A stretch of DNA of 64,000 nucleotides, taken from Candidatus Omnitrophota bacterium. Lineage in GTDB: Bacteria; Omnitrophota; Gorgyraeia; Zapsychrales; JAHFFX01. Of the stretch, positions 10,254-64,000 are shown piece after piece; within the stretch, counting starts at the first letter, position 1, and each line of letters opens with the position of its first letter. The notes under the pieces were generated by a model. The model worked only from the letters and a program-made list of their open reading frames with translations, did no database searches and had not been told where the DNA came from. The stretch lies in assembly GCA_023247705.1 (NCBI GenBank), contig JAHFFY010000009.1, forward strand, positions 1,688-65,687, in the 5' to 3' direction. A program made the position numbers and the translations under genes.

Positions 10254-10256
10254 TAT

Positions 10257-15340: not shown

Positions 15341-15410
15341 TCGTTCGTCAAAGCCCTGTCCCTTTCCCCAATATTCCTTATTTCCACGATGAACATTTTA
15401 TGCTATAAGA

Positions 15411-18059: not shown

Positions 18060-18154
18060 TCAGTTGTCGGGTTACGGGTTTTACGGGTTAGCGGGTTAAA
18101 TGAGCTAATTTCAAACCCGTTAAACTCGCAACCCGCAAACTCGCAAACTAATTT
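18060..18154. repeat. G/C-rich direct and inverted repeats in the mutS-mutL spacer (possible attenuator/terminator-like structure)
   Basis: CGGGTTA / CGGGTTTTA / CGGGTTA / GCGGGTTA repeats are followed by their complements AACCCGTTAAACTCGCAACCCGCAAACTCGCAAAC. A stem GCGGGTT...AACCCGT is possible. There is no clear T-run. Confidence 0.3.
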
Positions 18155-19966: not shown

Positions 19967-19986
19967 TCTTTATTTAAATCAAATAT

Positions 19987-20015
19987 TTGACGCTGGAGAA
20001 AAACTATTGTATATT
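19987..20015 (+). promoter_or_regulatory. candidate sigma70-type promoter for the small-protein/retropepsin module
   Basis: TTGACG is separated by 17 nt from TATATT, a near-consensus -35/-10. An AGGA Shine-Dalgarno lies ~7 nt before the ATG at 20035. Confidence 0.4.
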
Positions 20016-20034
20016 GTTTGCGATAGGACACACG

Positions 20035-20292
20035 ATGAACAAACCATTCTCCAAAAAACAACCAATCTTGATTGACGACGATTCCTGGCTCAAATCCCAT
20101 TTTGAGTGGCTGATTGATCATTATCCCGGCCAATATGTCGTGGTTGCCAAAGGCGAAGCGTTCATCGGCCGTAACGTCATCGCCCTCGAACGTCAAGCCA
20201 GAGAAAAACATCCTCACGCCACGACAACAGGGATGCCCATCCCGCGACAGCAGGATCTCTTCGCGATCCGCCGTCAGTGGTTTCGTAAATGA
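20035..20292 (+). CDS. small protein of unknown function (possibly DUF5678-like), co-transcribed partner of the retropepsin-like protease
   Basis: The ORF track starts at the TTG at 19987; the first ATG at 20035 gives MNKPFSKKQPILIDDDSWLKSHFEWLIDHYPGQYVVVAKGEAFIGRNV... Its stop overlaps the next ATG (ATGA at 20289-20292). From memory, small proteins of this type (YPGQYVVV.KGE motif) are often found next to bacterial retropepsin-like proteases. Confidence 0.45.
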   Translation: MNKPFSKKQPILIDDDSWLKSHFEWLIDHYPGQYVVVAKGEAFIGRNVIALERQAREKHPHATTTGMPIPRQQDLFAIRRQWFRK

Positions 20293-20702
20293 ACGAGATC
20301 ACCTTTTCGTATAAAACTTACAAAAAAACGCATTACCCCATCATCCCTATCGAAATCACCAATAAACGCACCAAAATCAAAACCAACGCCTACGTTGATT
20401 CCGGCGCTTCATTGTCAGTTTTTTCGATCAAAGAAGCGGTACGGCTGGGCCTGGACCGCCGCAGCGGACGGAAAGCCACGATCACCGTGGGAGACGGAAG
20501 TTTTGTCACGATTCATCTGCACAGGCTTTCGGTCAAAATCGGACACAGCCATCTCAAAGCGACGATCGGGTTTTCTCCAAGACTGAGCGTCAATCTGATC
20601 GGACGGAAAGATATCTTCGAATTTTTTGATATTACCTTCAGCGACAAAGACAAAATCGTTTCGTTTTACCCGCGTAAAGCCTCGATAAAACCGGCGGATT
20701 GA
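20289..20702 (+). CDS. retropepsin-like (retroviral-type) aspartic protease
   Basis: The catalytic motif is AYVDSGASLSVFS (D-S/T-G-A). Downstream is the flap/dimer motif NLIGRKDIFEFF, comparable to ILG.D.L. At 137 aa it is typical of single-domain bacterial retropepsin homologs that act as homodimers. Confidence 0.7.
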   Translation: MNEITFSYKTYKKTHYPIIPIEITNKRTKIKTNAYVDSGASLSVFSIKEAVRLGLDRRSGRKATITVGDGSFVTIHLHRLSVKIGHSHLKATIGFSPRLSVNLIGRKDIFEFFDITFSDKDKIVSFYPRKASIKPAD

Positions 20703-41700: not shown

Positions 41701-44700
41701 AGCAGATCAACTAATCCTTTTGCCATCGGATGATGTTCTTTGACGAGGATCTTGCTTAAAGATTCCAATCGTTGAATAAGATGTAAGGCCTGAGGCAGGG
41801 TAAAAGTAATCCGCGCTTCCGGTTGCTGCTGGGGCTGGCTCAACGGTATCGACGGTTGCAAACCCGGCAAAGGCGTTGTGAATGGCAGGGGCGGCGAAGG
41901 TAGCGGGGATTGTTGGGCTAATCGCGAGAGAGATTCCTGAGAAAATGTTTCTGAAAAACTTAGTCCAACCAGGCGGGAAGAAATGACAAAAAGCAATCCC
42001 CAAATTGCGAAATAACGTTTACCTCGGAAGGTTAAAGAATAATCACGGTGCAACGCCCTGATCGTAACCGCGAATACACTCGATAAAATGATCAACACTA
42101 AAATAACGATCCATGCTTCAAGAGAGACATTGATCCATCCATGAGATGTGTCGGATTTGGGTTGTTCTTTTTGTAGGGCAGGATGAAATCCTATGATCTT
42201 GCGGATCATTTTATCAACGGGATGCCTTCGTTTGATGTCGGAAAGAAGTTTAGAGGCTAGTTGGCGATCAGGAAGTTTTCCTAAACGGATGATTAAAACA
42301 AAAACCTTAATGACATCATTAAATTTCCATTCCTTGGCAAGCATGGCTAGAATAACGCCTTTCCAAATACGAGAAAATTCCGCTGTCGACATCTCTAAGA
42401 CAGTCAACCCCGCATTAATCTCTCTCACGTAACGACGATTTCTTTGTGCCGTGTTAAAAAATCCTCGAGCGAGTTGTTTCAAAATAGGAACTTGACGCCC
42501 AAAATACTGTAGAGATAAATACCAGGCGACCTCAATAACGACCGAATGATTTTTCTTCGTGAGCTTTGCCAACTCCTTCTCAGCGACCTGTTCTTTACCG
42601 TTTATGATGAGCCAGACAAGATGATTCACCTTCATCGACAGACGTTCATCATATTTCTCCAGAATTTCTTGGCCCAAAGATTTTACGATCCATTTCCCAC
42701 GCAACCTGCGCACGCTGGTATGTGAAATGTTCAGAATCCGTCCAATCGCCCTGGCGCCATAACCTTCACGATTCAGCTGAATGAATTTCTTTTTGAATTG
42801 AGGTTGAGCAATAAGCGGTTTAATGTTCGTGTCTCGACGTAAACGGCTGACATGCGTAGGAGATATCCCCAATAAAACCGCCATTTCTCTGACACGCTTT
42901 CCTTCTTTGGTATAGCGCGCCAGTTTGCTTTTGAGTTGAACGGGTGTCAATCGGATCTTATTGCGTCGTAACGGCTGGATATTCGCTCTAATCATAATCT
43001 TGCTGATATAGGCCCGCTTGACATTTAAGACTTCAGCTATTTCCCTTTGCCTTAATCCTTTCTCGTTCAGAACTCTTACCTTTTCATTCATCTCTTCTTT
43101 GGATAGTCTTGTCTTCCATGGATAACGGCCGCGTCCAATTTTAACAATCTGATCACCTCCGGATTTGACCATGGCAATCAAAAGCATCATCAGCATCGAT
43201 CCGATCGTCATATTTACGCTCAAATGCATCGCTTGACCTTCGTCATTGCCCTCGGAAGAATCCCGGATGCGATGCAGGATCATCAATTTGTCTGGTTCAA
43301 CGATCACTTCGAAGTCGCTGAGATTCAGGCCAATTCTTTGCTGAAACGGAGCTAAAGTCGTATTGATAAACAGATACGATCCCACACGCATCTGTTCAAT
43401 ATATCCTTTGAGTGTCGTTCGGGCTTCCTGGGATAAATAGGGAATCACGTAATTTAAAAAAATAATGTCTGCATTGCTCATATCAGTCCCTACTTCTCGA
43501 GCGATGAGGCTCGACTGTTCGAACTCAATGAGCCGGCGGTTGCGCAGAAAAGGACGATACTTGATGCTTAACCTCTCCAGGGATTTCTTCAAATAGGCTC
43601 TCAATCTGTGGCTGTGATTCTCACGCGATCGTTTATTAAACTTTTTTAAGCGTTTTGTCTCACGCAGGACTTGAGAGGCGATCGATTGCGGCAAATCTTT
43701 TAACCCGAAATAAACCAACTGATTCGTCAGATAATCCAAATCAACTGTTTCGATCTTGGCCGTTTCAAGTAAATTGTCACGGGCGTAATCAACCATGTCG
43801 GGCTTGAGTTCATAACCGCGAATGACAAATTGCATTTCATCGGCCACAAAACGCGACAGGCGTTTATCCAACACATAGGCCAGGGTTAATCCCATGCTGA
43901 AGGCCTCTTTGAAATTCGCGGCACCGAGTGATAACAGCATAAACTGTTTCGAGCCGCTGGCGATTCTCTCCTGAATTAAACTGATCAAAATACGTTCCAA
44001 TCTGGCAAATTGAGACGGAATACGGTATAGATATGTGGAGGATTGAATCTCGTCGGACAAATTCTTTTCGATCCATCTAAGCGTCCATTGATGAGCCGCT
44101 GTTTCTTCTTCATGAATATGGGCCACAAATGCTTCAATCCCGGATGGATAATGTCGCAAGAGAAATTCCTGGTCGGTCAAAAGATCCCGATAAAAGGTTT
44201 GGATCGTCACACCATTGCGAGGCGGGATGATTCCTAATTCCGTCAAAGCCTCTCTAAGCCTTCCCATCATCCTGTTGCGTTCAAAATTAACCTCTTCAGC
44301 CAGCGTAAAATCTTTTTCTCTCAAGACTTGCAGGAGAATGTTAATTTCATATTCCGAATACAGGCTGAGGAACCGTTCCACCATTAATGGGACGACGAGA
44401 ACCCGCTCGCGCTGTTTTAACAATTGATTCAATGCCATGGGGGTATCTTTTCTGGAGGAAACCGCCACCGCTGCGATAAAACGATCGATCGATTGACGAA
44501 CCCGGTTGCGCCGGATTTGATCAGGATCTTCCCGGATCGCAACGACACCTCTTACTGGGACCAAAGGTCTTAGCCCTTCCCGCGTTTTGACCTTCATAAC
44601 GGAGGCGATCTGAATTTCCTCTTCTTGAAGAAGACGGAGACGGTAATTAACAAACGGCACGTTCGATTCAATAACATATTCGCTGAACTGCAATTGGTCG

Positions 44701-47700
44701 GAGATCTCTCGGACTTCCCATTTTTTATATCGATCAAAGGTATTGCGGTTGACCGCCCAATTGAATAATACAATCTGTGGTGTCATCGGGATTTCCAGCT
44801 GGCGGGTCTGACGCAGCCAAACATTGGAGATCTTCCAGTGATCGGAAAAGAGATCAACTCTCAACGGGAATCTCTGGTTCACATCTGCGTAAGTCCATTT
44901 TTTCATTTTCCGTAAAACCGGGATGCTCTGCCACCAGCGCAGCATTTGCTGGATATGAGGATGCAAATCTTCCCAACGCAAATAAGGCAACCACGCGTTA
45001 AGCGACCCCAACGCTTCCGGTGGAAGGGGGACTGTTCTTAAAGACAGCTGTGCCCAAAGTTCCCACACATAAACGATCCTCTCCAAATCAAACTGCCGTT
45101 GTTTAACGTCATTCGGTTTCCAAGAAGAAACATTCACCAGTGCTCCGGCCTTATCAATCAAAAGATCGACAAAACCGGAATACCGATCATGATCGTCATA
45201 ACTTAAATGAAGACGGGCTTCATTCCTCACTTCTTCGAGAGACATCTCTGGAGTTCGGGTTGTCTCTTGGGCCCGTTGGATCATGGCTCGAATGGAAGGT
45301 GGATAATTCTGCCGGGCGATGGTCTCCAGGTATTCCTTTTTCGATGGATCAATGGTCGGTAGCCATTTAGGAAGGGTGAGATGGATTTCTTGACGACCGT
45401 TTTCGCCTGAGGCCGTGCGGATCATCGCGGTCATTAAAATTTGCATCATGAAAAACATGCCCAGCCAAACGAACCCATTGAATTCGCCATACCAATCCAT
45501 ATCCAGGAAGAAAACGATCTGATTGGATTGGTCTGATGCATCCGGCGTCTTGCGAACCAGATTGTTCTTCTTCATCAAATAAATCACCCTCGTCGGTTTA
45601 ATATATAAGACTCGTGCGATGTCACCGGGTCCTTTCCCTTGGGCCAAAAGATGTGCAATCAATGTTTCCTCTCCATTGACGGCCGCAAAATAATCTTCGA
45701 CGCTTTGGGCCTTCTTCAAGGCCTCAGGAATTTCGGCATACTCCGCCAGTTTCGCCAATGCATAAAAATGGCTTTCGGTCGACAAAAGATCAAAATAAAT
45801 CTGATACGCGTTCAAGCCTTGTTCATTCAGGACTTTATCTTTGAGGTCCTTGTAGGCCTTGATCCAGTCGTCAAAGACCAGCCGTTCCAGATGTCGCTCA
45901 TAATCGGTCGCAAAATATTGTTCATTGGTCTTCGTGACCGGCCAATGCACGACGATCCCGGTTGCATGGCCCAGACTTTCGATCGTGTCGACCACATAAC
46001 CACGATCAATGCCGGATTTTCGTCCGACAAAATCCCCAAGAGCGGGCCAAGGCGCATAAAGACTGGAGCGCTGCAAGCTGAGCGGGAGTCTTTCTTCGGC
46101 CATGAGATACATATATTCGATGAAGGCGAATATTCTGGAATCGTTCATGAAAATCTTCAACAATGCATCCATTTCAGCGACATCCGCCATCAGGTGCAGT
46201 TGAATCGTCTCTTCAATCATTTTTTGGGCCAGATATCTTGTCAATTCCGGATATTCTTCACGCAAGGCCAGCTTCAACCAATCGATCAATTGATCTTCAT
46301 CAGCCGTTTGCAAAAGTTCGAGCGCTTTCGTTCTGGTCTCTGCGGGCGTCAACTTTAAAGACAACGACATTAATCGATCCTGGATATCAGACAACACCCC
46401 TCTGGGATTATTCCCCAGTAAACGTTCCATCACAGAAAAAAAGTCATCCAGATCGCTGAATTCACTTCCTTTCATCTCACGGCTTTTGAGAATCCGTTCG
46501 ATCTGTTCTCGCGAATAGCCGGCCCTCAGCAAATCAAAGGCATCGGCTCTATTTAAAAATTGGACAAATCGCACAACGAGATCCGGATCAATGTCGGCAA
46601 TCCATTGCCTCCGGTTTTCGACAGATGAAAAAGTCTGCCTGGTCTTAGCAACATTGTCTTGTTGACGTTGAGGTAAGCCCAATTTAAGACGTAATTTATC
46701 TTCGATATTAGACCTAGTTTTTCCAGGCAGGCCTTCTTCTTTAGAAGACTCGGAACGTAACGATTGTTCCAGTTGCAACCAAAAATCGTCCATGTCCTGA
46801 AATCTCCGGTTTTCGTCTTCCTCTAATGGCCGCTCAAACAGCAGTTGCAGGATCTTCGCATCTTGTTTTAAAATCGTGCCCCAAACGATTCGCGCTTGCG
46901 ATGGAGGCAAACGAGCTCTGAGCAAATCATCCCACTGCGCCCGGTTCAGGAAATGCACCATCACTGTCGCGGCATCCGTTGATTGAACCACTGTTAGGGC
47001 ATCGGCACTCGTATTTCCATCTTCGATAAAGGCAAAAATCGCATCAACAATTCTCAAAGCGCGGTCAGAACCAGTGATCTCGGATAAAGAATAAAGAGTT
47101 TTTAAAGAATCTTTTTCTTCAAAAATCTTTTTCGCCCAATATCTCGGGCCCTGAATGTTCGTCGCGGATATCCATCTGAAAAGTTGCGCCTCATCGGCGT
47201 CTTGTAACATTCGCAAGGCAGCCGCCTTTGTTTCATATCCCGGGATAAAAAGCGTCTGATTTCTCAGTCGGCGTTCAACATTATCATGCCAACGCGAATA
47301 TCCGCCGTGCGATCCCATCGATCGCCGGATGCCCCACCAAAAATCCCGTAAATGCGTTAATGGACGATCCGGCCATCCCAACTTACGTTTGGTCGCATAG
47401 ATGATGCTGGTATGATATCCTTGTAATCCTAGGCGTAACAAATCCAAACTCTCCGCCCGATTCAAAAAATCCAGAACGGCTGTGTCATCGTTATAAATGG
47501 TCGGTTCTTCACGTTGCGATGAGACAGCTCGTTGCTTGCGTACTGGGACGGGCACGATGTCCTGAGCATCGGCTGGATTGAAAAAATCCACAATCGCCTC
47601 TTCTGTATTGAATACCTCCTCCTCAACCCCCGGGGTTGGAAAGGTCGCCGTCGTTTCGTCCATGAGATTGTATAAATTCCTGACCAGAATCACCGTGCGG

Positions 47701-50700
47701 GCTGCACCGATCACATCGACCAGATCAAACAAACGGTTGATCCCTTGTTTGACTTTCCAGATATCCGAAACCAACGCTTCCGCTTTATTGAGCCCGGATA
47801 ACCAGGTCAACAACTCGGTGCTGGTTGCTTTATGGAATTGCTCTAAGGCTTGCGTTCTGACGGCAATCGGCGTGACCTCCAAGGTTTTGGTTTTTAAAAT
47901 CCGCGCGATAAATTTGTGCGTATGGGCATATCCTTTTCCGTGATAAATGTTCAAACGGTACCAAAATTCTTCATAACTCGAAAAATCACCACCTTGCTCT
48001 CGAACCGCGATCACAGCGTTGACATGAGCGATCTTAAATTCATTCAATAAAAGATCGATCTCATCCGCCGTGTTTAAAAAATCTAAAATACGCTCATCGT
48101 CGTTTTCCCCCTCTCTTCGCGCGGGCGGCGCCAGCCCTTCCTCATCCAAGACCATTCCCAAAAGATGTTCGATAAACTTCTTGAATTTCTCATCACTGAT
48201 ATTATAATCTGTCAAATCATATAACCCATTCGATTGCGCATCACGCAAACCGGTCCGGTTATTAAACACGTGCATCGCGAAGTATTTATTCTGATTGACG
48301 TCGGCGTAACCCTGCCAGGCGGTTGTCACCCAGATCTGAAGTTCGGCGTGCGTTGCGTTCACAACTTTATCGACCATTTTGGAAAGGACCGTGTGATCAA
48401 TCATCTCAAGAGGAGATTCATTTAAAATATTTTTCAGGCGGGTAAAAAGAAGTTTTGTTCCTGACCCCACTCTGAGTTCATCGCTCGCGGTCAAAAAGCG
48501 TTGCCCAAAATTATTCCAATTGGAAAATGTCCCATCCCTTCGCGCGCGCCGGATCGCCCGGACCGTCCAAAATCCCAGATCCAGCCTTAACAGATCAATC
48601 TCATCCGCCTCATTTAAAAAGCGGATGATCGCTGTTTCGGAATTGACCGATGAGGTGCCTTGGACGTCTGTTACGATTAGCGGTGTTTCATGTTCATCCG
48701 TGAAAATTACTCCACCCGGGACCATCCGATAAAGGAACCGGACCAGGAGCCGCAGCCGCTGTTCGGTCATGCCGTCAATATCACGCAGTTCATACAAATT
48801 CTCCAGCCTGACTTTTCGTGTCTCAAGATCAACGCTTCTCATGAACACATCGGTCCCGATCTGAGCAGGAATAACGCCGGTCGCACTGCCCCAGGCGCGT
48901 TTCAATAATTCAGTGATCCCCTCCTGACTCATCGTGACTAAAATCCTTCGAGCCTCTTGATTAAGTTCGCGATCGCTTAGAATCAAAGGATGGTCCTGTA
49001 GTTTATTCATCGAATCATTAATAATCACCTTGGCCCAACGGCCAAAGCCATCTCGTCGCGTTCTTGCCAAACGCTGCCATAAATCCGCGATATCCATTAA
49101 AGCCCCTTCTTGTTTTGTCCTTAAAACCAGATCAATCTCCAGATAATCCAATCCGGCCAACAATAAATCAATCGCCTGCGCCGCGTTCACAAATGAGAGG
49201 ATCTCCGCAGAAGAATTCCTGATCTTTGCGAATGTTTTTGTTTCCGCTGAATCCCCTTCCACCAGACCGTAAAGATATTCGGCGAATTTCAACACACGGT
49301 CCGGGCCCATCCCGGAAGAATGAACGTCAAAGATGGAATCGAGATCATAGCTGCTGTCAGAATTATAGTAATGCCGGGTGGCTATACTGATGGCATATCG
49401 TTCTTCCTTGGTGTATCGCGCATCATGGAAGGCGTTGCGGATCCAGACGGCGATTTGATCTTTGGAAGCGGCCTGTAACATTTTTAAAGCTTCTTCCCGA
49501 ACAATTTTGTCCGTTACCGTCAACCGGGCCGACCGCAATATACGCATGATCGTAATTCCCATAAAAGTGTATCGGTCAAGTTTGCTGAGAACGATCTTCA
49601 TCAGATCATTCCAAGAAAAAACTTTCTGATACAAACGTTGGGCCTGCGTTTGGTTTAAACCCACCCGCAGAAAATCGATCATGTCGGCTTCCCGCAAAAA
49701 ATCCAAGATTGCATCGTTGCTATTGATGCCTTCGATCTTCTCTTGAGTTTCGTTAGGCATCCGGGGGGACTGATCGATTGAGTCAGAAGCCGCTCCCAAT
49801 TCTTGCGTAGGCTCAAGAGATCCCGTCAACTCATCCAGGATAAGACGATATAAATATTCGGCTAATTTCCGGGCATTTTTTTCTGTGATCCTGATCGTGG
49901 TTAATTCATAAAGATTCCGGAAATGAATTTTTTGGGCGGCAATGATCGCAGCGGTGTAACGGGCAACTCCCGGGCGCTGATAAATCCTAATGCCGATCAG
50001 CCAGGATTCAATTTCGGATTCAGACGCCGATTGCAATCTGCGCAGGGCCTCTCGCTGCAACCACGGGGCCGTGACTTTCAAAACAGCGGAATCCAAAACC
50101 CGCTGGATCGCCGGTCTGATCTTGGTCGCGAAACCCGACGAACCGCGATCTTCCATCTTCTGCCAGAAATCCTCGAGACTATCAAACACGATCGGCTCGG
50201 AGACCGCGCTCTCATCTAATCGCACCAGCGGTTCATTGCGCGCGCCTAAAATGTGCAGGATGTGATTACGCAAAAGACCAATCTCCGGCGCCGCAAAATC
50301 AAATCCGTCCGCGATATTTAAAAACGCCAGCTGTCCTTCCGGAGTATTGGAAAAGATCAGATACGGTTCACCTCTCTCCATCGATCCCTCGGCCAGCTCT
50401 TTGACCTGCGTTCGCGGTTGAGGCGAAGAAGATTGATGTGGACCCGCCAGGGAAACACGCCCTTGCACGATAAGATAAAGATATTCGATAAACGTTCTGG
50501 TATTCTCGACGATCCCTAAGGTCGAGATCAACGGATAAAAATCTTGGAGAGAAAATTTTTGACCATAAATTAATTTTGCCTTTGATCGGATGATCTCAAA
50601 ACGCGAATAGATTTTGGCGCCGAGAATCAATTCCAAAATTTCTTCCTCCGAACTGGATTTGAGTTTCATCAGCGCGGAATCGCGCAGTTCAGAGGATGTC

Positions 50701-53700
50701 ACACGTAATGTGGCATAGGACAACGCATCTTCGATCGCCGGTTTCATCCGCGTTTTAAATCCATGAGGTCTCAACATTTGTATGGCTGACCAGAAGTCAT
50801 CCAGACTTTTAAACGGGATGTCGGTATCTTGCCTCTTCTCTCTGGCTTCTTTAATAATATAGTAAGCGGTGTTCCAGGTTAATCCGACGTCAGGATGAGT
50901 CATATCAAAAAGATCAGCGTCATTTAAAAACGCCAATTGGCCTTCCCGTGTATTTGGATAGATGATATAAAGTTCGGTGACCGGTTCGGGTTCCGGCACC
51001 GTTCCTTCGGCCAAACGGTGGAGATAAACAACGAATTGCCGGATCAATTCCTGTTCGACCCGATGATAGATGAGGATATGGCTGACCTTCTGTTGGATGT
51101 CCATATTGGACGACCGGATAAAAGAGAAAAGCTCCTCGGCCAGAAACCTTGTTTCCATCGCCGGCGAAGCGCCCCATGCCTGACTCAGCCATGCCGCGAA
51201 ATCCATGGCCTTCGCGCTGGAAATTCGCTGAATGACGCGATAACGGACATCGACCGATACGTTTTGCAACGGTTTCGTTCTGATCACTTCCTGAATACGC
51301 GCTTTCAATTGTTCATTGGTCAAATCAAACATCCGTCCCCAGAAATCGTCCATCCGTTTCCAAAGTTGCTCAAGCTCGGTGATGGGGCCGACTTTCATCG
51401 TGCGTTCAATGATGTCGATTTCCTCCCGAGTAAATTCATGGAGGACCAAATCAAAATGGTCCGCCTGGTTAAAGAATTTCACGGTGGACAATTGCTGTTG
51501 TTCATCCTGGAAGGATCTATATAAAGGACTTCGCTGATAGGCCACCCAAAGCGTCATGAACTCTTTATCTAATTGTGCAATAAACCGGCTCAATCGGGCA
51601 TCACGCATGATGTCCGCGGTCCCGTCCCATTTGCCGCGCTCTTGAAGAATCAGTGACTCAAACGCGTCGCTGCGATCTTTAATCCGACGATTCCGTTCCG
51701 ATGCAAATTCCGGACGTAATGCGCTTAAAAAGTCCCGTGTCTGTTCATAACTCAAATAAAATTGCTCCGGTGTTTGTTGAACAAAGAGAATGTCCTCGGC
51801 TTTGAAAAATTCGTCTTCCTGCTCTTCCCAGATCTTTACTACGGTATCAAGGCGTTCCCGGATGTTATCATCGAGATAGGTTTTGCCAGCCTGTAAAGCG
51901 GCCAATTTTACGGCAAAATCTTCGTAATTCTTTTCTCTCCGATCGATCTGGTCGTAATTGACAACATGTTCAATACGATCAACCTCAAACTCAATGTCTC
52001 GCCCTAAGAAAACCTCCAGTGTTTTTAAAACGTCGCGGTTCCATTCTTCCTCGAAATATTGCGGCTCTGATTCATGTTCTGGCCGTGATGGTCGAACGCG
52101 TCTTGGCCGGCGCAGACGCAGTTCTTGCGGTTTCAGCATTTCTAAAGCGCCCTCATTGAGCGGCCGCACTTTGACATACACGGTCACATGATAAGGCAAC
52201 GCGGTCATCTGACGGATCTGTTGGAGCATCTGCGGACCTTCGTCCCTTAAAATACTTTCCGCGCTTTCCCGGGATAAACGATTCCGATGGATATAATGCT
52301 GGGCCGCGATCTCATAACCGCCGATCTCGCGCAACATCCGGTCAAAATGACTTCCGATCAATGGCGCGCTCCTCGGAGATCCGACAATTAACACCGGATG
52401 ATCCTTAATATGTTCTTCTGTGATCGTCGTGCCGGCCGGCAACACGTCATATCCGGCATACAGCGCCTCCAAAGTCTTCAAGGCTTCTTTCATTTCGCGC
52501 GGGGTCAATAAATCCCAGACATAACTCGCCACGATCGCTTTAACGACATTCGCCTGATCCTGCCCTAAAAATCTTCTCATCTTATTTAAAACATCTTGGG
52601 TCTCGCTGATATCGGCGAGGATCTTATTGGGGTTGGGGGCGATTCCGCTGATCCCCTCATGCTGTTCAATATCGATCATATAATCTGACATCTCAAGCGG
52701 CCTGCCCTTTCGTCTTAAAACCTGTCTTAAGACCCGCCAGGCAATACTGACATTCGCTCCGACATCCAGCATAAACGGTGTTCCATCGATGTGCTCCGCG
52801 ATCCATTCGGCGATCCAAAGATTGGTATGATAAGAGGAGCGGCGGCGTTCCTGTTCGGTCAAATCAGGGATATCGGTTTTCCCCCAGCGCATACGGTCGT
52901 CGCGTAATAAATTCAATGTTCGGCGGATTTTCTCGTGCAGGTTGATAAAAAAGATCTGTTCGGTCTCCTCAACCACTTCACCGTTTCTGATCTTCTCTAA
53001 TAACGCGGTGAGCCGATCAAAATCATCCGCGGTGATCGCCACCAATTCTTTTCCGGCGTTTCTGCGTTCTTGATACAATTCTTCAGCCAATTCTAGACGG
53101 GTGACCATGCCCATGGCAACCCCGAGTGGAAATCCCGGCATCCTTCGTTGCCACACCCTTTCCATTTCTGTTTTGACCTGCTTGTAAGAGGCGATCTGCT
53201 CGTCTCCCAATTGATCTCGGCCCCAGACAGGTAAATTCCAGCTGCGTTCGGATTCAGGGACCAAACGATTCATAAAAGCCTGCATCTTTCTCATCTCGCG
53301 CAAGAGATCGCGTGCTTCCTTGATTTGCTGCAATTTTTGAGATCTCAACAAAATCCGTCGGGCATCGTGTTTTGCAAATCCGCCGAGGATGACCCGGATA
53401 TCCTGCGGTCCGACATAAATTTCCAATCCACTGGCCAGATTCACCACCTCATAAATCCACTGCGGATTATTTCCAAACTCATCGTGCCGATCTCCAGCCG
53501 TATTGGTCAAACCCGTCGCGCTGATATTCGGCTGAGTGGCGACAAGCAAACTCCTGATTATCCATCCTTCCTGTAGTCTGGCCCATTGCGCTTCGAGATC
53601 CTCTTCAAGATCTTCACCGGATAACTCGATCATGCGACGTTTTTTATCCTCGGTTGTGATCGAAACCCTTCTGTGCAGATCCACGAGCACCTCGCTGAAG

Positions 53701-56700
53701 CGCACATCCCATTCGCCGAACAGTTCCCGTTGCAGGGCCCGTAAAAGATAGTGATGCGCCATAGTCCCACGTCCCTCTGACTGTAAGTCCTTCGCCCGGC
53801 GGGCCAAGACGCGGCTGTCCCGGCGTCTCAGTTCTAAAATAGATTGTTCAGTCCCGATGTGCACGATGAGATCCATTCGCGCGCGCTGTTCGTTTAATTC
53901 CAAAATCAGTCGATGGGAATCAGAAATCTGTTCAGATCCCATGTATTCTCCGAGTTCGTGGAAATACGATAACGCCCGGATCATCGGTTCCGGATGGTTG
54001 ACTAATTTGTGATATAACGCGATTGTTTGTTTGTGAGGGAGGGCCACACCCAACAGATCAGCGATCAAAATTCGGAAGGAATAAATCTTTTCCAATCCCG
54101 GCGGTGCGTGGAAGAGTTGATATAAGGCGCTCAATAAATCATAGGCGTGGGATTCTTCCCGCGCCAGGATTCCCAGCAACGTTAATAAAATTTTTTCTAA
54201 ATCCACGGAAATTTCATCCAGAGGATTAGCAAATGGTCGGTTGGGTTCGGCGTTTTTGATGATTCGCAAATGTGGCCTGCCGTTTTTATGTTCAATCCCG
54301 ATGGCACGAGCCTGGTTCCCTAATTGTCCAAATTCCTCCGGTGTTTCTCCTGGACCTTTCTCTTTGTGTTCTGATCCTGAACTCGATTGATCCGGCAAAT
54401 CTGTTGTTTCAGATCCTTCTTTTCTCTTCTCGGCAATGAGCTTTCTGATTTTTTCTAATACCTCTTGGGTGGAAATTTTTCCACTCTTTACGTCTTCCGG
54501 AGGAGCGATACGATCAAGTTCTCGCATCCCCAACTCTCCGGTGAGAGACCGATACTCATTGACCGCCTCGAGCAAATCCAACACGGATTGATTGGCCATG
54601 CCTTCCGGTAAACTAAATCGCATTTCGTTTGATGATGTATTAAAAATAACCCCTGGCCTTCTGACCGGTTGCTGTTGAGGCTGTTGGGCCGGAGTCCTTT
54701 TCCATTGCTCGATGGCAAATAAACGGATATGGTCTGCGATCTTAGTCTCGTCGTTGTTTCTAAGGTTAAATCGCACGCCTTTCGTTTGAAAATACTGTCT
54801 TAAATCAGCGCGATTCTGTACAATCATCAATTCTTCCAAGACCCGTTGGCTATTCTTAACGGCCCGTCTGTTCTTTCCATCCTCACTGAGTTCCAATTCA
54901 AAAGCTCTTAACCAGTCGATCAATTCCTGAATCTCCTTCGCGAATGGTTTAATTTGACTGACACGGTTGATCAATTCTTCCCTCAATGCGGATGTGATTT
55001 GCGGGAATGGATTCACCCAAGAATTTTGGATCATCTCGACCATCTGACGATAATTTTGTCTTTCTCCATAGATTTCTAAAAGCAAATGCGTGATGGCAGG
55101 CAAGGGAATTTGTTTGATCGTTATGAACGGATCTGGAATGTCTCTATCCGGGTTATAATCCGGTAAAATACGATAACGTAAAAACTGAAGCTCCAATAAC
55201 GATTGAATCATAATGACCGGTTCCAGATGCAATACAGCTGCCTCTTCTGTTCGGCCGGTTCTAAACATTTCCTGAATGAGTTTCGCCTCTAAAGCGATAT
55301 AAACAGACATCGTGTCTTTTTGTCCGGTTGCCCCCAAAGATCTGGCCATGACCGGAATATTCATCCGCTTTAACTGACTATAAAGTCCGATGCCCACATC
55401 GAATCCTATAAAAGCGATCCTCTTCGTCGGGTACTCTTGATAAAGTTGGACCAACCGCTCCAAGATCTGACGTTTTCGGACGATCCGGGCCTTCGCGGAG
55501 TATATGATCTCCTGAGTAAAATAATTGATTCCTTCTCTCAAATGTCCTGATTTAAGCGCAGCGCGGACTAAACGGTTTTGCCTTACCCCTTGGGAATCCC
55601 AATGATTCCGCGGAATCCCCAACGTATAAATCTTTTTCCCTCTTCCGGCGAGAAGTTCAAATAAAAATTTCAGGCTGTTTTTAAGATCTAACGCGTCCTG
55701 GTTAGAAACTTCCATGTCAGTCATAAGCTCAGCCAATTTCGATCGATCTTGAGATAACTCATCCAGAAATTCCTGCTGGAGGTGCATTTCTTCGATGATG
55801 ACAATATCCGCCGTTGCGATCATCTGATTTAACTCTTCTGCGACTTGATTAAAATGTTCCATGTCACTTAAATAAAGTTTTATTCCCGGGGATTGCTCGA
55901 ATCGTTGCTGCCGGGTTTGAATGATTTCGGGTGGTGTTCTCCTGGTGGATGCAACGATCCGTTGTCTTACCGGAACTTGCGGACTATTCGTTACGTCTGT
56001 TGACTCTGGTTCTTGAACAAGCCCTTCCTCTTCGACCGTTTCAGTTAGTTCATTAGTCGTCAATTCTGAAGGCGGTGTCCGTGTTACATTAGCTTGTGCT
56101 AAGGAAACATCCTGTCCGGAAAAAAGGTTCGTTTGTTCTGCAGACTCGACGTCTTCCGGTCCGATATGATCAATCGACAAAACTTCTTCTTGAGTTGGCT
56201 GCGCCTGACTCGCCATCGCCATCATATTCAAAGCCCCGCGTAAAGCACGCATCGCATCGGTTAACGTCTCAATCCCTAACCCGATCATCCATTCTTCGAC
56301 TCTTTGTTGCGCTCGTAGAATTCCTTGCTCGGTCTTCAATGAAGCTAATTTTAATTCCGAAACGATATTAAATAATTCCCGAATCTGCTCGGAGGAAAGG
56401 GATCGCATGATGTTGGAAATCAGACCTGACCAGGTATAAACCATTAAATATCGACCTCCATTCCATAATTTGTCCACGGCATCATAAACAACGCTCTCTT
56501 CTATTAAACGGTCTATTTCTTGCGGTGTGAGATAAGAAGAAATCTGATGTTGCATTATTCTCTCAACAGGACTCAACAATCTCACGATATCTTCCGGTGC
56601 TTGAAGAACGATGCCCCTATATTCCGAAGGCATTTCTTTTTCTCCTCCGATCCGGTTATCCATGCGCAGGCTAATGACGACCCGGTTTCGGTTGGTCTTC

Positions 56701-59700
56701 AGTAACGCCGGGATCTGCTGACCAAAAATCTGCTTATTCATTGAACGCAATCCTTGACCAGCCGACTCCGTCATTCTGAAAATATTCCTTCGATACAGCT
56801 CATAATCCCCCCGATCTTCGGAGGCCTCCAAAAAGGCGTCTGCGATTAAATGACTAATCGATGAAAGCGGCACGCCGGGTTCCAGCGGCTGTAATTCCAG
56901 CATTTGATGGTCCAGCTGAATGTTATAACCTTGCTGCGTCACCTTCTCATGCAGATATTCAAACAATGCCATACGAAATTCCGCTTCGCGGGTAGTCCCT
57001 TGCAAAGCTATATTTCGTTGCACAGTCGCCCTGACCTCAGCAAAGGTTTGCTCTCGATGCCGTATTCGATGGGAAATCTGCCGGGAAGATCTGTTTTCTC
57101 CCTCGATCGAAGCCCGGATAAAATCAATCGTGGGGATAAAATAAGCGTCTCTCTCTCCGGTAACCCTTTTCAAATTGCGATGACGAGACAATCCTAATTC
57201 ATCGACAGCGCTTCGGGGGATCAAAATAGTTTCCTGCTGATACCTATTATCTCGTAACTGACTAAAAATCTCTTTAACCGAGACAACCTGTTCATTGAAA
57301 CGCGGGCGATCGACCTCCAGAAAGATAACGACCTCCGTATCTTTTCGATCTGGGACCAACCGATCAATCAAAACATCCAACTGACTGCGGACACGATCAA
57401 AATCTTTGGCCCATTGCATCCCCGTGTAGATCACACTCCAACGCGGCCTGAGCACTTCCATCTTTCTCAAGATCAACTGCGGCACTTGATCGCGCGTTTC
57501 ATTGCTCAATAAAGCTGTTAAAAATAAATGATTCCTCTTGGCGTTGTTGGACGGCTTACTCATGGCCTCGTGGATCATCGTCGCCGCGGCCGTCACCGTC
57601 AGACCTTCATAATTGCGCGCTAATGTTACAGCCGCATCGCTCAAACGCGCTTGGGTTTTTAATTCTTCGATCGAAGCGGTGATGGCGAGATGAACCAATT
57701 CTTCTGCATCGTTCGTGGGTTGATGGGAACTGGACGCCGGCAAATCTTCCTGTGCGGTTGAAATCTCTTGGACGGCCATAGGGATTTGTGTTACATCCTG
57801 ATACTCAGGATTTTCTTCGTCGGTCAAGAGCCCCGGAATCCGCCCTTTATTCTCAATCAACAATCTGATCCCGGAAGTCACTTCGGCATTCAGATATTCA
57901 ATCACAGCCTCTTCTCCATAAAGATTGAACGCGGCCACGACCGCATGACGGTCATTGCTGGCCAAAAAATTTCCTCTTTGGGCAAAAACCGATCGGCGCA
58001 TGTAAATTCTCTCGACTTCTCTGGCCGTAAACCAATGTTGTGCGACAAAATTTCTAATTTCTCTAATAAAAAGACTTTGTCCTTTGGATGTGACAGCATC
58101 TTCTAATTGCCGTTGAGTCAGAAAATCTCTCAGATCTTGCCTGTTTTGAACCACAAGAAATTCTCCGAGACCTTCCAAAGGCATCGCTTCAATGTTCAAT
58201 CGATCAAGATCAACGTCTTCTTGATTCTGGAATAAGGAATGGAATCTCATCGCCAATTTCCTGCGCAACTCCGGGGTAATTGGGCGCGTCGGCCAATCTT
58301 GTGCCGCGACGATATTCTCGATCGTTTGACTTAAACTCACTCTCCCTGAATAGTGATCAACCAAGCGTAAAGCGATATCAGGAAGAGCGAGGCGTCGGAT
58401 CGCTTTAATTTCACTTTGCATATCCGCTGACCGGTTATAACTTCTTGAGCCGCGCCAATTACGCCATAGATCAGCTAAAAATTTTTGAGCCGCCTCAAGA
58501 GAAGAGATGGAAACATCTTGGGTCTTAAACATTGCTTTGTTTATCTTAACGGCATTGATCATGGACCTGTCAAAATGCGGTTTGTTTTCCAACGATTGGA
58601 AAACGACCGGAACGTTCCTTTTCTTGAGCTGGACGTAAATATTAAGATTAAAATAAACACCGATGACCAAAATCTTCTGTCCTTGATTTTGCTCATAAAG
58701 GCCCTGTAAGAAATTAATCGATTCCAGGTGAGTTTCGTATTCTTCCCGGATAATCGCTTTCCAGGCCTCGATCGAATGTTTCAATCCTTCCCAAAATCTA
58801 TTTTGTTCGAAGCTTTTCTTGGCCGAATTATATCGTTCAACACTCCGGCGATGGTGCGGGTTATCGATGTACTTGGTGTTAATGCTATGGAACCTCTTGC
58901 GGATTCCTTCCACGCCGACTTCATAAAGCAGGCGCATCCATTTTTGGATCGCTTGACCGCTGGGGGTGTTGACTTTAAGGAATGTCCTGTTGACAGCTTG
59001 CTCGAGGGTGATCTTTCTTTGCAGCAGCAAATTAAAAATTTCATTATCCGTCCTGGACAGATCCATGACGATCCGATCCGCTTCCTTCATCGCATTGAGC
59101 AGGATGGTCCGATGTCGATCGATATTTCGTTCATCAAGGAATTGGAAACTAACCCCCGCGATAAGCTTGCGCGCAGATGGTGAAGAAGGAGTAGTAACTG
59201 AAACCACATCCTCATAGATCGCATCAACGATTTCTTCCGTCCCTGGGGCCGCGGCCGGTATTTGGGCTAACGTGGTCGCATCAATCTCCGGCCAATATTG
59301 ATCCACCATTCCACGAATGTGATTGCGCAGCGGATAGCGCGTGCCGCCGGAAACATAACCGAAAATATGTTTAAAGCGTTCGTTCAGGAAATGATTAAGA
59401 TCCGCGGTCTCCCACATCACAAGCAATTCTTCAAATTCTTCCAAGGAAAGTTTTGTGATGGGTAAACCACTGAAGCGTTCCAGTTCCAACCGCATGGCCT
59501 CGGTCACCGGCTGGACGGGCGAATTCAGGGTTGTTTTGAGGATTTGAAATAATTGATGCGCGGTCAACCGATCGCGATAATGCTCAAGAATCCTGCGCGC
59601 CATATAAGGAAGCGGCAGGGCGGCGATAACGTCATTCTCTTCAGGAAAGTTCTCTTCTACGCCGTAATACCATAACACGGCCATTAATGAACGGGTGATG

Positions 59701-62700
59701 CCCTGTAGTCCGATGGTAATTTGCTCAATCTCTATCCCCTGATCAATTTGGGCAACCACCTCATTAAAGAATAGGTCATGATAATCCGGCCGGATCGGAT
59801 TTTCTTCAGATGGATTAAGATATTCCACCGTCGTATTGATCCCTGAGTTATTTAAAAGATAAACCAGATGATCAAGCCCGGCGATGTTTTGAATGATCGC
59901 GACTTTCCCATCCTGGGCTTGACGAAAATATTGCACCAGTGACTCAACGATCGCGATATTATCTCTTGAAGAAATATCCACGGCTAATTTTTCCGCCTCT
60001 AAATAAAACCGAATGCCTGACAAGAATCTATTCTGACGAAACTCCTCACGCGCTTTGTCAAGACGAAGGCTATATTCACGATCATGCGAGTTACCGCCTT
60101 CCTCCCCGAGTATCACCTTAACGCCTCCGTTAATCATCTTGCCTTTGCCGTAGGCAAATCTTAACAAGTACCGCGCCTTACCGATTTCCACACTCTCTTT
60201 AATACTGTTAGGAACTGTTTCTATTTCACTCAATAAACTTTCCAAAGATTCTCTGGCATTGAAAGCGCGCTCGAATATTGAATCGTATTTTTCGGTGATA
60301 TCCGTAAGAATGACATCATATTCCTCAACGATCGTTTCAACACCCGCAGCATATCGCTCCAAGAATTCCGGACGACGGCGATTGGAACTGACGTAGACAT
60401 TAACGGTAAATTGAGTTGAGGTTGTTCCTGCGGATTCACCGGACTTTTGGTCTGCTTGCGTTGTGGTCGCTGATTCTTGGATGGTAACCGTTTCTCCCTC
60501 ATCTTGAATCTGTTCAACTTCTAACGTTGTTTGTACCGCCGAAAGATCCGTGATTGCGGCATCGGCCTCAGGCGTTGATGGTGTTTCTTCTAAATTGCCG
60601 CGTACGGCGTCATTGGATGAAGTCGAATCGGCAATTTCCGAAATCGCTCCCCAATACCGGTTGACCATCGCCCGGATTTCCCGACGCAGCGGATGACGGA
60701 TCTTTCCGGAAACAAAACCGAACACGAACCGGTGCTGATCATTCAGGAAATGACTCAAATCCGGCGTGTCCCACATGACCAGTAATTCCTCAAATTGCTC
60801 AAGCGTCAATTTTTCCAAAGCAAAACCTGCAAGACGACTTAATTCCAATTGCATTTCCCGCGTGACCGGAACAGGCGGGGCCGTTAAGGTCGATCTGAGC
60901 ACGTCAAAAAATTGACCCAATGTCAGCCGTCCACGGAAAAGATCAAGGATCCGAAGCGCGATATAAGGAAGCGGCAGGTGTTGAATAATTTCGTATTCAC
61001 GCGGATCATACGGTTCCTGACTATGGAACCATAAAATGACCAACAAAGATCGGGCCACGGCCAGAAGACTGACTTCGATATCTTTAATTTCTTTACCGGC
61101 CAAGGCCTCGCGCAGCGTCGCATTAATCAGGTTATCAGCTTGGTCGCCCTGGGTTTCCTGTTCCCGCTCGTCGGTCAGATATTCCACCTCGATCTCAATG
61201 CCTTGTCGCTTGAGAAGCTCCCGCAGATGCTCGGCGCCCATCATATCTCGCATGATCGCGATCCGCGCTTCCGGAAATACCTCGAAATGCTGCATGATGA
61301 TTTCAACATTCGTTTGATTTGTTTGCATCGTTGTCCTTGCCGAAAACCGTTGCGACTCAATCAGGCTGCGTATCCCGGCCAAGAAACGATTTTGCTCGAA
61401 TTCCGCCTCCGGCGATTGGAAATCGCGGCTATAGGCAATCGCATCCGGTGTACTGCTCGAATTAATGACGATCGCGCGGATACCGCCGACCAGCTTCTTT
61501 CCCCGGCCATAACTTTGTCTCAGAAGCGTTTGTCCCTTCACGGTATAAGATGGAAAACTCGATTTCGAAACATATTCCTTAATTAAATCTTCGATCGATC
61601 CTTGTCCTTGCGAAGCCCAGGCAAATATTTCGTCTGATTCAGAAAGGATATCAGTAACAATCAAATCGTAATTCTCAATAATGGCATCAATGGCCTGATT
61701 ATAAATATCGGCGCTGACCGGACTTTTACTGTCGGAGGTTATGTAGACTTTGACTTTCCGTTGAGGAGCGATAACATCCGGAGACTGATCTTTTTTTGAG
61801 TCGAGATCCGAACCCTTTTCGGCTTGCTCTGTCAAAAATTTGGTCACCACCCCTGAAATATTCTGTTCCCCTTCAACCGGTTCTTGGGTTTCTTGACTTG
61901 GGGCCGGTTGTTCAATGACCTTATAAAGATATTCGGCGATAAAATTCTCAATAAATCGCGCGATCGCGTCGCGTTCAGCGCCGTTATTTCTGATCAGGAA
62001 CCGTGTCAGGTTCTTTTGCTGGAAGAACGTCCGCAGGTCACTGCCGCGTTCGATCAACAGCAACCGTCCAAAATCTTCCAGACTTAAGTCCCGCAAATCC
62101 ATCGTCAAACCTAATCGCGCTTTGATCTCTGATTCAAACGCGCGCATAAGACCGATTGAAACCGGTTGAAGAGGGCTTTGCGACAGCTTGAACATATCTT
62201 CCGCGATTGATTTGGGCGTCACCTTTTCCCTCGACCATTCAAATACTTGACGCTGAATATAAATGTAAGATAATGTTCTCTCGCGAATGACTTTAACGAT
62301 GATCCCATTGATCGACTGCCCATTGATATCAATATCCACCACATTCATTTGTCCCCATCCGTGCAGCATGGCACTCATAAAGGCGCGGAACACATTGATC
62401 CGCACAACATCCAAAGACTTCTGGTGCCGCATTTGGGACAACAACCGAAGGATCATCAGATCATCCAATTGTTGATACCGTTTTAATAAAATCGTCTCTT
62501 CAAACGTAATATTTTCTTTCCTCAATTCCTGGACAACAAAAAATCCCGGCACAATATCATCCAGGATCACAATCGATCGGTCCGCGTAGATGAGTAATTG
62601 TTCATTGATCCCGACCACAAAAGAATCCAGAATGACTTTCTCTTCTTCATAAACCTCGATCTGCCGTTCCAGATAATGTCTCATCGCAAGCGCGGTATCC

Positions 62701-64000: not shown

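What the first reader, a model, noticed from the sequence alone, without database searches (positions are those of the whole stretch)
54700..64000. At least five tandem ~440-aa modules of an unrecognised family at the N-terminal end
Each module has a beta-strand-like start (KVYITSDS / VNVYVSSN / IKLYLSDM), YDLIVTDI, GRGKK..GG, FEQNRF, an (R/K)(I/V)A(I/F)IG...G...L...LK motif, and a C-terminal LPLPY(I/M)A.RIL...FEELLVMW.T.DL.HFLN block. The conservation pattern, with invariant charged and glycine positions, suggests a folded and possibly enzymatic or nucleotide-binding unit rather than a pure structural repeat. The partial copy at the window edge implies more copies upstream.
Basis: seen in the sequence. 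Interest (0 to 1): 0.55.

Follow-up and report, generated by a model that had tools for sequence, protein, structure and literature searches.

The report
Orphan repeat modules in giant protein
The start of a giant (at least 14,497 amino acid) bacterial gene, probably from the phylum Omnitrophota, holds six old, diverged copies of a roughly 400-residue two-domain unit with no detectable relative in any database searched; this fits what is already known of these giant proteins and shows no sign of an active enzyme.

Summary
One minus-strand ORF (20415..63908, still open at the window edge) encodes at least 14,497 aa. Its first 3,090 residues hold six homologous modules: five complete and one cut by the window edge. 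Leave-one-out HMM E-values are 3e-19 to 1e-77, against at most 10 bits for shuffles.

- **Divergence:** copies are 17-39% identical, with almost no DNA similarity, so this is ancient duplication and not assembly collapse.
- **Spacing:** the sixth copy is separated from the others by about 710 aa of unrelated sequence.
- **No relatives:** nothing in Pfam, NCBIfam, PHROGs, PADLOC, PDB sequences, 1.84 billion protein representatives, or genome, metagenome and viral contigs.
- **Fold:** AlphaFold2 folds two copies the same way (pLDDT 79 and 70): a five-strand alpha/beta domain plus a helical domain.
- **Nearest fold:** the highest-probability Foldseek hits are mostly TIKI/TraB/ChaN/erythromycin-esterase members, but no E-value is significant.
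- **Catalytic residues:** the family's 2His/2Glu set is missing. There is no Walker A or GxGxxG motif, and only two columns are invariant.

I read the modules as non-catalytic scaffold or binding units in the transmembrane-free N-terminal arm of an Omnitrophota giant membrane protein. This is a sequence-unique member of a known kind, of modest interest.

The parts
20415..64000 (-). Giant ORF: 14,497 aa from the first ATG at 63908. The frame stays open to the window edge, so the true N-terminus probably lies beyond base 64000.
63087..64000 (-). Module copy c0, cut by the window edge (aa 1-274 plus the 30 upstream in-frame codons). It covers profile positions ~103-384 only: the end of the alpha/beta domain and the helical domain.
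61896..63071 (-). Module copy c1 (aa 280-671). Complete and the most degenerate full copy.
60636..61757 (-). Module copy c2 (aa 718-1091). Carries KVYITSDS, YDLIVTDI, GRGKK..GG, FEQNRF, MGAEHL, LPLPYIA and FEELLVMW.
59223..60407 (-). Module copy c3 (aa 1168-1562). 39% identical to c2. Modelled with AF2 (pLDDT 78.6): alpha/beta domain in residues 1-~200, helical domain in 208-380.
58017..59156 (-). Module copy c4 (aa 1585-1964).
55887..58016 (-). About 710 aa of intervening sequence (aa 1965-2674) that does not match the module or any family. It interrupts the array.
54639..55886 (-). Module copy c5 (aa 2675-3090). 19% identical to c3. Modelled with AF2 (pLDDT 70.4), with the same element order as c3.

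Best explanation
The region encodes the N-terminal part of one giant protein that has many hydrophobic, membrane-spanning-like segments. The bacterium is probably a member of Omnitrophota.

Ancient internal duplication produced at least six copies of a two-domain module. Each has a ~200-aa alpha/beta domain of five strands alternating with helices, directly followed by a ~180-aa helical domain. Three of the four junctions between the first five copies are polar linkers of 24-78 aa (acidic in the two longest); c0 and c1 are only about 5 aa apart.

The alpha/beta domain is most likely a very divergent offshoot of the TIKI/TraB/ChaN/erythromycin-esterase fold that has lost the catalytic 2His/2Glu set. 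The TIKI-like domain of Pasteurella multocida toxin has lost it in the same way.

The modules would then act as non-catalytic structural or binding units. They would form a repeated platform in the transmembrane-free first ~6,100 residues, ahead of the membrane-embedded, enzyme- and HTH-bearing remainder.

Shown: the ORF, the six homologous copies, their divergence, the lack of relatives, the two-domain prediction, and the absence of catalytic or nucleotide-binding motifs.

Inferred: the TIKI-like ancestry, the non-catalytic role, and the cytoplasmic location.
For: - **ORF and copies:**
- **Ancient duplication:** 17-39% identity and almost no DNA similarity.
- **Fold:** two separately modelled copies give the same E-H-E-H-H-H-E-H-H-E-H-E core plus a helical domain, with pTM 0.76 and 0.71.
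- **TIKI-like, c3 model against PDB:** the only hits with probability above 0.3 are HopBA1 5t09 (0.99) and BcR135 2rad/3b55 (0.87 / 0.47).
- **TIKI-like, c3 model against viral structures:** the top hit is a Marseillevirus TraB-family protein (probability 0.96).
- **TIKI-like, c5 model against PDB:** HopBA1 (0.75) and ChaN 2g5g (0.54) are again among the four hits above 0.5.
- **Same superfamily:** PMC6254334 places HopBA1, BcR135, ChaN and PMT in one TIKI superfamily. It defines that superfamily by a five-strand parallel sheet core and notes that PMT lacks the 2His/2Glu motif.
- **Motif order in c2/c3:** strand 2 ends in Asp, then Q-N-R-F, then a strand followed by G-x-x-H (MGAEHL / AGLDHL). 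This parallels E. coli YbaP, a TraB-family protein: VEAD, QRN, GALH.
- **No invariant polar residues** across the six copies.
- **Membrane layout:** the first TM-like segment is at about aa 6145, followed by roughly 25 hydrophobic segments (28 peaks, some overlapping).
- **Organism:** MutS is 61% and MutL 53% identical to an Omnitrophota MAG, in the same gene order. Other phyla reach at most 45%.
- **Literature:** dark N-terminal regions, ancient internal repeats, many TM helices and mostly singleton sequences are typical of Omnitrophota giant proteins.
Against: - No Foldseek E-value is significant (best 0.059). TM-scores normalised to the TIKI-type targets are only 0.24-0.36.
- For c5, tetrapyrrole-methylase domains score about as well (probability 0.51-0.54).
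- Sequence-level tests for TIKI membership are all negative. Pfam at E<=10 gave nothing for the six copies or their consensus. PDB profile searches gave nothing. hhalign against an enterobacterial YbaP alignment gave probability 0.1, although both alignments are shallow.
- Both models come from the same six-sequence alignment, so they are not fully independent.
- The cytoplasmic location is unproven, because the true N-terminus, and any signal peptide, lies outside the window.
- A non-catalytic role is argued from missing motifs, not shown.
Confidence: 0.5

Rival explanations
1. The alpha/beta domain is a generic three-layer Rossmann-like fold, or a degenerate ParA/MinD/Get3-type or AAA+-type fold with a helical lid, unrelated to TIKI. 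The module is a lineage-specific scaffold of no assignable ancestry.
For: - Many E-value-ranked Foldseek hits are P-loop ATPases that pair an alpha/beta domain with a helical domain: F1/V-ATPase, CED-4, Get3, Soj, RFC/ORC, and the unnamed protein 3pg5.
- Strand 2 looks like a 'hhhhD/E' motif (VILTDI, IVIIEE).
- Tetrapyrrole-methylase hits match the TIKI hits for c5.
- All sequence tests for TIKI are negative.
Against: - Foldseek probabilities for these hits are 0.02-0.30, against 0.54-0.99 for TIKI members.
- TM-scores are 0.10-0.24.
- No Walker A loop follows strand 1 in any copy.
- TIKI members form a very small superfamily, yet they appear in all three searches.
Confidence: 0.3
2. Some copies (c2, c3) are active TIKI-like hydrolases or proteases. 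They could, for example, cut the giant polyprotein at its polar inter-module linkers. The other copies would be decayed duplicates.
For: - c2 and c3 keep an Asp after strand 2, an Arg in QNRF and a His in GxxH.
- In RRSP the essential catalytic pair was assigned to the second His and a Glu, and a conserved Arg is required.
- West-Roberts et al. propose that N-terminal C39 or S8 peptidase domains may process Omnitrophota giant proteins.
Against: - The first E-x-H / GxxH motif is absent from every copy.
- The supposed pair has Asp rather than Glu and occurs in only 2 of 6 copies.
- There is no sequence-level match to any hydrolase family.
- The spatial proximity of these residues in the models could not be checked.
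Confidence: 0.1
3. The repeats are an artefact: an assembly collapse or expansion of a mobile or tandem DNA repeat, or a spurious non-coding ORF.
For: None found.
Against: - Copies share only 17-39% protein identity, and DNA similarity is limited to two short stretches between c2 and c3.
- A 43.5-kb frame without a stop cannot arise by chance at 46% GC.
- Several recognised domains lie in the same frame further on.
- There are no transposase or other mobile-element hits in the region.
Confidence: 0.01

Closest known systems
Giant (>=10,000 aa) membrane-anchored proteins of Omnitrophota (West-Roberts et al. 2023, bioRxiv 10.1101/2023.11.21.568195; Nielsen & Lui 2026, bioRxiv 10.64898/2026.06.07.730766)
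   Same: - Likely phylum, from MutS and MutL.
- ORF of at least 14.5 kaa with about 25 TM-like segments.
- N-terminal region without recognisable domains.
- Several families of ancient internal repeats whose DNA similarity has dissolved.
- Scattered enzyme domains in the rest of the protein.
- No sequence relatives; 80% of such proteins are reported as singletons.
   Different: - No SecA_DEAD, C39 or S8 peptidase, dockerin or TSP3 domains, so it is neither the Archaeovorin nor the Dockerin type.
- The repeated N-terminal module is not a Pfam family.
- The protein is unusually rich in HTH domains.
TIKI / TraB-PrgY-GumN / ChaN / erythromycin-esterase superfamily (e.g. HopBA1 5T09, BcR135 3B55/2RAD, ChaN 2G5G, RRSP, PMT C1-C2)
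   Same: - Predicted five-strand alpha/beta core with a helical insertion.
- Highest-probability Foldseek hits in three searches.
- c2 and c3 keep a GxxH after the fourth strand, an acidic residue after strand 2 and an R/N motif, in the family's order.
- Like PMT, it sits in a very large multi-domain protein and lacks the catalytic set.
   Different: - No significant E-value and low TM-scores.
- No sequence-profile match.
- The first GxxH is absent in all copies and the second in four of six.
- There is a long extra helical hairpin before strand 4.
- It is fused to a ~180-aa helical domain and repeated six or more times.
P-loop NTPases with a helical lid (AAA+/STAND, SIMIBI such as Get3, Soj and MinD)
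   Same: Overall 'alpha/beta domain followed by helical domain' layout. A hydrophobic strand ends in Asp or Glu.
   Different: - No Walker A motif.
- Foldseek probabilities are 0.30 or lower and TM-scores 0.24 or lower.
- No Pfam match.

Membership tests
TIKI/TraB/ChaN/EreA superfamily | Core of five parallel beta-strands flanked by helices (PMC6254334) | tested here: inconclusive
   - AF2 models of c3 and c5 each show five strands alternating with helices.
- Foldseek probabilities are 0.99 / 0.87 / 0.47 (PDB, c3), 0.96 (BFVD, c3) and 0.75 / 0.54 (PDB, c5) for superfamily members.
- But E-values are 0.06-1.6 and TM-scores to the targets are 0.24-0.36.
- Strand order and direction could not be inspected.
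TIKI/TraB/ChaN/EreA superfamily | Catalytic 2His/2Glu set (two GxxH-type histidines plus glutamates) (PMC6254334) | tested here: not met
   - First His motif: absent in all five copies that cover it. c2 has YITSDS, c3 YVSSNR, c4 QFLDER, c5 YLSDME, and c1 is gapped there.
- Second GxxH: only in c2 (GAEH) and c3 (GLDH).
- Residue after strand 2: Asp in c2-c4, Glu in c5, Asn in c1.
- PMT is an accepted member that also lacks the set. This therefore rules out activity rather than the fold.
TIKI/TraB/ChaN/EreA superfamily | Conserved basic residue near the active site (Arg-4001 in RRSP) | tested here: inconclusive
   The Arg of F-[ERK]-Q-N-R-F is present in c2, c3 and c4 only. Equivalence to the family's Arg rests on motif order, not on superposition.
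TIKI/TraB/ChaN/EreA superfamily | Sequence-profile match to PF01963, PF04187 or PF05139, or to solved members | tested here: not met
   - Pfam at E<=10 gave none of these for the six copies or the consensus.
- PDB profile searches gave none.
- hhalign against a YbaP-family alignment gave probability 0.1, with shallow alignments on both sides.
   - The loop after strand 1 is SSNRRRPEF, TSDSKSPVS, DERN or SDMEH.
- GRGKK..GG lies between a helix and strand 3, and only c2, c3 and c5 carry it (GRGKK in c2 and c5, GKGK in c3).
Rossmann NAD(P)/FAD-binding domain | GxGxxG loop after the first strand, and an acidic residue ending strand 2 | tested here: not met
   - The (R/K)(I/V)A(I/F)IG strand is the fourth strand of the domain.
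- The glycine pattern is not conserved: IGFDVGIG, IGVYFNLN, IQNIAGLD, ILDDIVPG.
- No Pfam hit.
Omnitrophota giant proteins | ORF of at least 10,000 aa in an Omnitrophota genome | tested here: met
   - ORF of at least 14,497 aa.
- MutS is 61% and MutL 53% identical to Ca. Omnitrophota MAG246, with mutS-mutL in the same order. The next-best MutS is 45% or lower.
- The phylum call rests on two linked markers only.
Omnitrophota giant proteins | Numerous TM helices, a domain-poor N-terminal region, and ancient internal repeats without nucleotide tandems | tested here: met
   - About 25 hydropathy peaks from aa 6145 onward.
- No Pfam hit in aa 1-5000.
- Four internal repeat families, with almost no DNA repeats.
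- Compared.
Archaeovorin- or Dockerin-type giant proteins (West-Roberts 2023) | SecA_DEAD domain, N-terminal C39 or S8 peptidase, and dockerin/TSP3 or glycosyl-transferase/hydrolase sets | tested here: not met
   Pfam scans of the whole ORF show only HTH, GFO_IDH_MocA, alpha/beta-hydrolase, TPR and Rce1-like domains. The part of the N-terminus beyond the window is untested.

The most novel reading that the evidence does not exclude
The module is a new, lineage-restricted protein family with no relative among about 15 billion predicted proteins. Copies c2 and c3 would retain a working His/Asp/Arg site derived from the TIKI hydrolase fold. They would act in cis as processing proteases or esterases that cut or modify the giant polyprotein. 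That would give a mechanism for how Omnitrophota giant proteins are matured.
Probability: 0.08. Interest if true: 0.6.

Novelty: new member of a known kind. Interest (0 to 1): 0.3.

Why it matters
Omnitrophota giant proteins are among the largest proteins known, and most of their sequence is unannotated. This case gives a cleanly delimited, repeated and confidently foldable unit from the 'dark' N-terminal arm, plus a testable fold hypothesis: a decayed TIKI/TraB-like domain joined to a helical domain. If the hypothesis holds, the unit adds a pseudo-enzyme module to the parts list of these proteins and gives a handle (profile A1) for finding it in newly sequenced relatives. It does not by itself reveal a new mechanism. 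Internal ancient repeats and singleton sequences are already reported as the rule for this protein class.

Tried and rejected
**Searches for relatives of the module (all empty)**
- Word-indexed search of 5.8 billion proteins with the six-copy alignment.
- Exhaustive hmmsearch of 1.84 billion representatives.
- GTDB genome contigs with aa 1-270.
- JGI metagenome contigs with the c2/c3 alignment.
- IMG/VR viral contigs.

**Attempts to extend the contig (failed)**
- An exact 44-nt search of the metagenome contigs and an exact MutS look-up both found nothing.

**Family libraries for the module (nothing usable)**
- Pfam, NCBIfam, PADLOC, PHROGs and PDB sequence profiles for the full module, N-domain and C-domain.
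- The artificial consensus sequence gave a sub-threshold DUF3427 hit (E 6.5e-4, 19.5 bits, below the 27.7 cut-off). It falls in the helical insertion, and none of the real copies reproduces it. I treat it as compositional noise. phmmer of the consensus against PDB gave nothing.

**Profile-profile and internal comparisons (all probability 0.2 or lower)**
- Module N-domain against an enterobacterial YbaP (TraB-family) alignment. That homolog search returned only close relatives, so this is a weak test.
- The intervening 710 aa, and aa 3090-4090, as hidden module copies.
- The module's helical domain against the downstream ~165-aa repeat family.

**Other readings considered and rejected**
- Csm6 (CARF-HEPN) topped the E-value list (0.06), but with probability 0.16 or lower and TM 0.11, and there is no conserved Rx4-6H motif.
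- The closest genome (L001) has mutS-mutL but nothing similar to the giant gene beside them.
- The repeat region at aa 4080-5960 also has no homologs.
Full report
**What is there**

The reported interval is the 5' part of one enormous minus-strand ORF, 20415..63908, encoding 14,497 aa from the first ATG. The 30 in-frame codons between that ATG and the window edge contain no stop. GC content is even across the ORF at 0.43-0.51. Recognised domains occur in the same frame further downstream. This is a real coding frame.

**The modules**

BLAST of one unit against the protein showed related segments. A profile built from four units found two more on its own, with E 6.7e-20 and 1.3e-16.

In leave-one-out tests each of the six copies matches the profile of the others, with E between 3e-19 and 1e-77. 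Shuffled versions never exceed 10 bits.

| Copy | Residues | Note |
|---|---|---|
| c0 | 1-274 | Starts at profile position ~112 |
| c1 | 280-671 | Most degenerate full copy |
| c2 | 718-1091 | Full motif set |
| c3 | 1168-1562 | Full motif set |
| c4 | 1585-1964 | Partial motifs |
| c5 | 2675-3090 | Partial motifs |

- No further copy is detectable anywhere in the 14.5 kaa. That includes the 710 aa between c4 and c5 and the 1,000 aa after c5.
- A profile built without c0 aligns about 10 residues upstream of the first ATG. The ATG is therefore probably internal, and at least ~100 aa of c0 lie beyond the window.

**Not an artefact**

- Copies are 17-39% identical.
- At DNA level, the only similarity aligned with the copies is two stretches of 75-91 nt, at 71-75% identity, between c2 and c3.
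- Three of the four junctions between the first five copies are polar linkers. The two longest (50 and 78 aa) are acidic, with 20-21% Asp+Glu and 38-42% Ser/Thr/Pro/Gln. The 24-aa c3-c4 linker is polar but not acidic. c0 and c1 are only about 5 aa apart.

This is old duplication followed by divergence.

**Conservation**

Only one Ile and one Pro are invariant in all copies. What is shared is mainly hydrophobic core positions and a few glycines.

**No relatives**

- The six-copy profile has no match in Pfam, NCBIfam, PADLOC, PHROGs or PDB sequences.
- It has none in a word-indexed search of 5.8 billion proteins.
- It has none in an exhaustive HMMER search of 1.84 billion cluster representatives.
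- Scans of GTDB genomes, JGI metagenomes and IMG/VR found nothing.
- The source contig is not in these collections, so it could not be extended.

**Fold**

- AlphaFold2, using only the six-copy alignment, gave a confident model for c3 (pLDDT 78.6, pTM 0.76) and a usable one for c5 (70.4, 0.71).
- Both have the same element order: strand-helix-strand, three helices, strand, two helices (one about 35 residues long), strand-helix-strand. A domain of roughly ten helices follows.
- Each module is therefore a ~200-aa alpha/beta domain plus a ~180-aa helical domain.

No Foldseek match reached E<=0.001 in PDB or BFVD. The high-probability hits nevertheless come repeatedly from one small superfamily:

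| Query | Library | Hit | Probability |
|---|---|---|---|
| c3 | PDB | HopBA1 (5t09) | 0.99 |
| c3 | PDB | BcR135 (2rad / 3b55) | 0.87 / 0.47 |
| c3 | BFVD | TraB-family protein | 0.96 |
| c5 | PDB | HopBA1 (5t09) | 0.75 |
| c5 | PDB | ChaN (2g5g) | 0.54 |

- PMC6254334 groups HopBA1, BcR135, ChaN, PMT and RRSP as the TIKI superfamily. It defines the superfamily by a five-strand parallel sheet core, a 2His/2Glu catalytic set and a conserved Arg. It notes that PMT lacks the catalytic set.
- TM-scores to these targets are low (0.24-0.36).
- For c5, tetrapyrrole-methylase domains score about as well.
- P-loop ATPases with helical lids fill the E-value ranking, but with probabilities of 0.30 or lower.

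**Motifs against known families**

E. coli YbaP, a TraB-family protein, shows GSIH, then VEAD, then QRN, then GALH in that order. c2 and c3 show no His motif after strand 1. They then have TD after strand 2, QNRF, and GAEH / GLDH after strand 4. The other four copies lack the histidine altogether.

- The family's catalytic set is therefore not met, and sequence-profile tests for membership are negative.
- No copy has a Walker A loop.
- The 'RIAFIG' strand is the fourth strand, not a dinucleotide-binding first strand, and its glycines are not conserved.
- The nucleotide-binding idea is not supported.

**Context**

- The flank encodes MutS and MutL.
- MutS is 61% and MutL 53% identical to a Candidatus Omnitrophota MAG, with the same mutS-mutL order. 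All other phyla reach 45% or less.
- That MAG has no counterpart of the giant gene at this locus.
- The giant protein has no TM-like segment before about aa 6145 and roughly 25 after it.
- It carries three further internal repeat families.
- It also carries many HTH domains, a GFO/IDH/MocA oxidoreductase, an alpha/beta-hydrolase, TPRs and an Rce1-like protease.

All of this matches published descriptions of Omnitrophota giant proteins:

- N-terminal regions lack identifiable domains.
- Proteins of 10 kaa or more are common.
- 94% carry TM helices or a signal peptide.
- 65% have internal domain repeats that are ancient rather than recent.
- 80% are sequence singletons.
- Finding unannotated repeated folds in them with AlphaFold2 has precedent.

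**Interpretation**

- **Most likely (about 0.5).** The modules are non-catalytic structural or binding units, descended from a TIKI/TraB-like alpha/beta fold fused to a helical domain. They are repeated along the soluble N-terminal arm of a membrane-anchored giant protein.
- **Rival 1 (0.3).** The alpha/beta domain is a generic or P-loop-derived fold with no TIKI ancestry.
- **Rival 2 (0.1).** c2 and c3 retain hydrolase or protease activity.
- **Rival 3 (about 0.01).** The repeats are an artefact.

The existence, extent and homology of the copies are shown. Ancestry, lack of activity and cellular side are inferred.

**Verdict**

The family is new at sequence level. The phenomenon is the expected one for this class of proteins, so interest is modest.

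Noticed in passing
window 46086-51488 (-), aa 4141-5941 of the giant ORF: A second internal repeat family: ten tandem ~165-aa units (E 1e-18 to 1e-60 after HMM iteration). They share a motif like 'LDFLNrAD..DLLr.G', reminiscent of ComEA-type helix-hairpin-helix. The only database support is a weak Pfam HHH_6 hit (E 0.004). The word-indexed protein search found no homologs, and hhalign shows no relation to the N-terminal module.
   Followed up: partly
window 21639-25835 (-), aa 12692-14090: Two consecutive ~700-aa units, 38-57% identical. Each contains several Cro/C1-type HTH domains (HTH_3, HTH_31, HTH_26) and ends in a TM-like segment. DNA-binding domains are unexpected in a membrane-threaded giant protein.
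   Followed up: no
window 42690-43067 (-), aa 6947-7073: Three back-to-back short HTH motifs (HTH_3, HTH_28, HTH_23; 'REIAEVLNVKRAYISKI', 'REMAVLLGISPTHVSRL', 'RAIGRILNISHTSVRRL'). They lie just after a TM-like segment.
   Followed up: no
window 26124-35069 (-), aa 9614-12595: Enzyme-like domains interspersed with TM-like segments: GFO/IDH/MocA oxidoreductase (aa 9614-9860, E 4e-18), alpha/beta-hydrolase (aa ~10719-10790), TPRs (aa ~11301 and ~12009) and an Rce1-like CAAX protease (aa 12507-12595). There is no SecA_DEAD, C39 or dockerin domain, so this is neither of the published giant-protein types.
   Followed up: partly
window 37719-38516 (-), aa 8465-8730: A short duplicated ~85-aa segment (37% identity). 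Each copy precedes a strongly hydrophobic TM-like helix.
   Followed up: no
window 1-14000: The left flank is markedly lower in GC (0.36-0.42) than the mutS-mutL and giant-gene part (0.43-0.51). It carries three large ORFs with weak spermidine-synthase-like or MFS-fusion matches (1262-4591 +, 6055-8550 -, 10854-13052 -) and a CstA-like transporter (8547-10253 -).
   Followed up: no
L001 (JBFMEN010000052.1, Ca. Omnitrophota MAG246) 10001-22562: The closest available genome keeps the mutS-mutL pair (61% and 53% identity). It has ordinary-sized minus-strand genes (209-1049 aa) where the window has the giant gene, and none resembles the giant protein. The giant gene is therefore lineage-specific or the locus has been rearranged.
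   Followed up: partly
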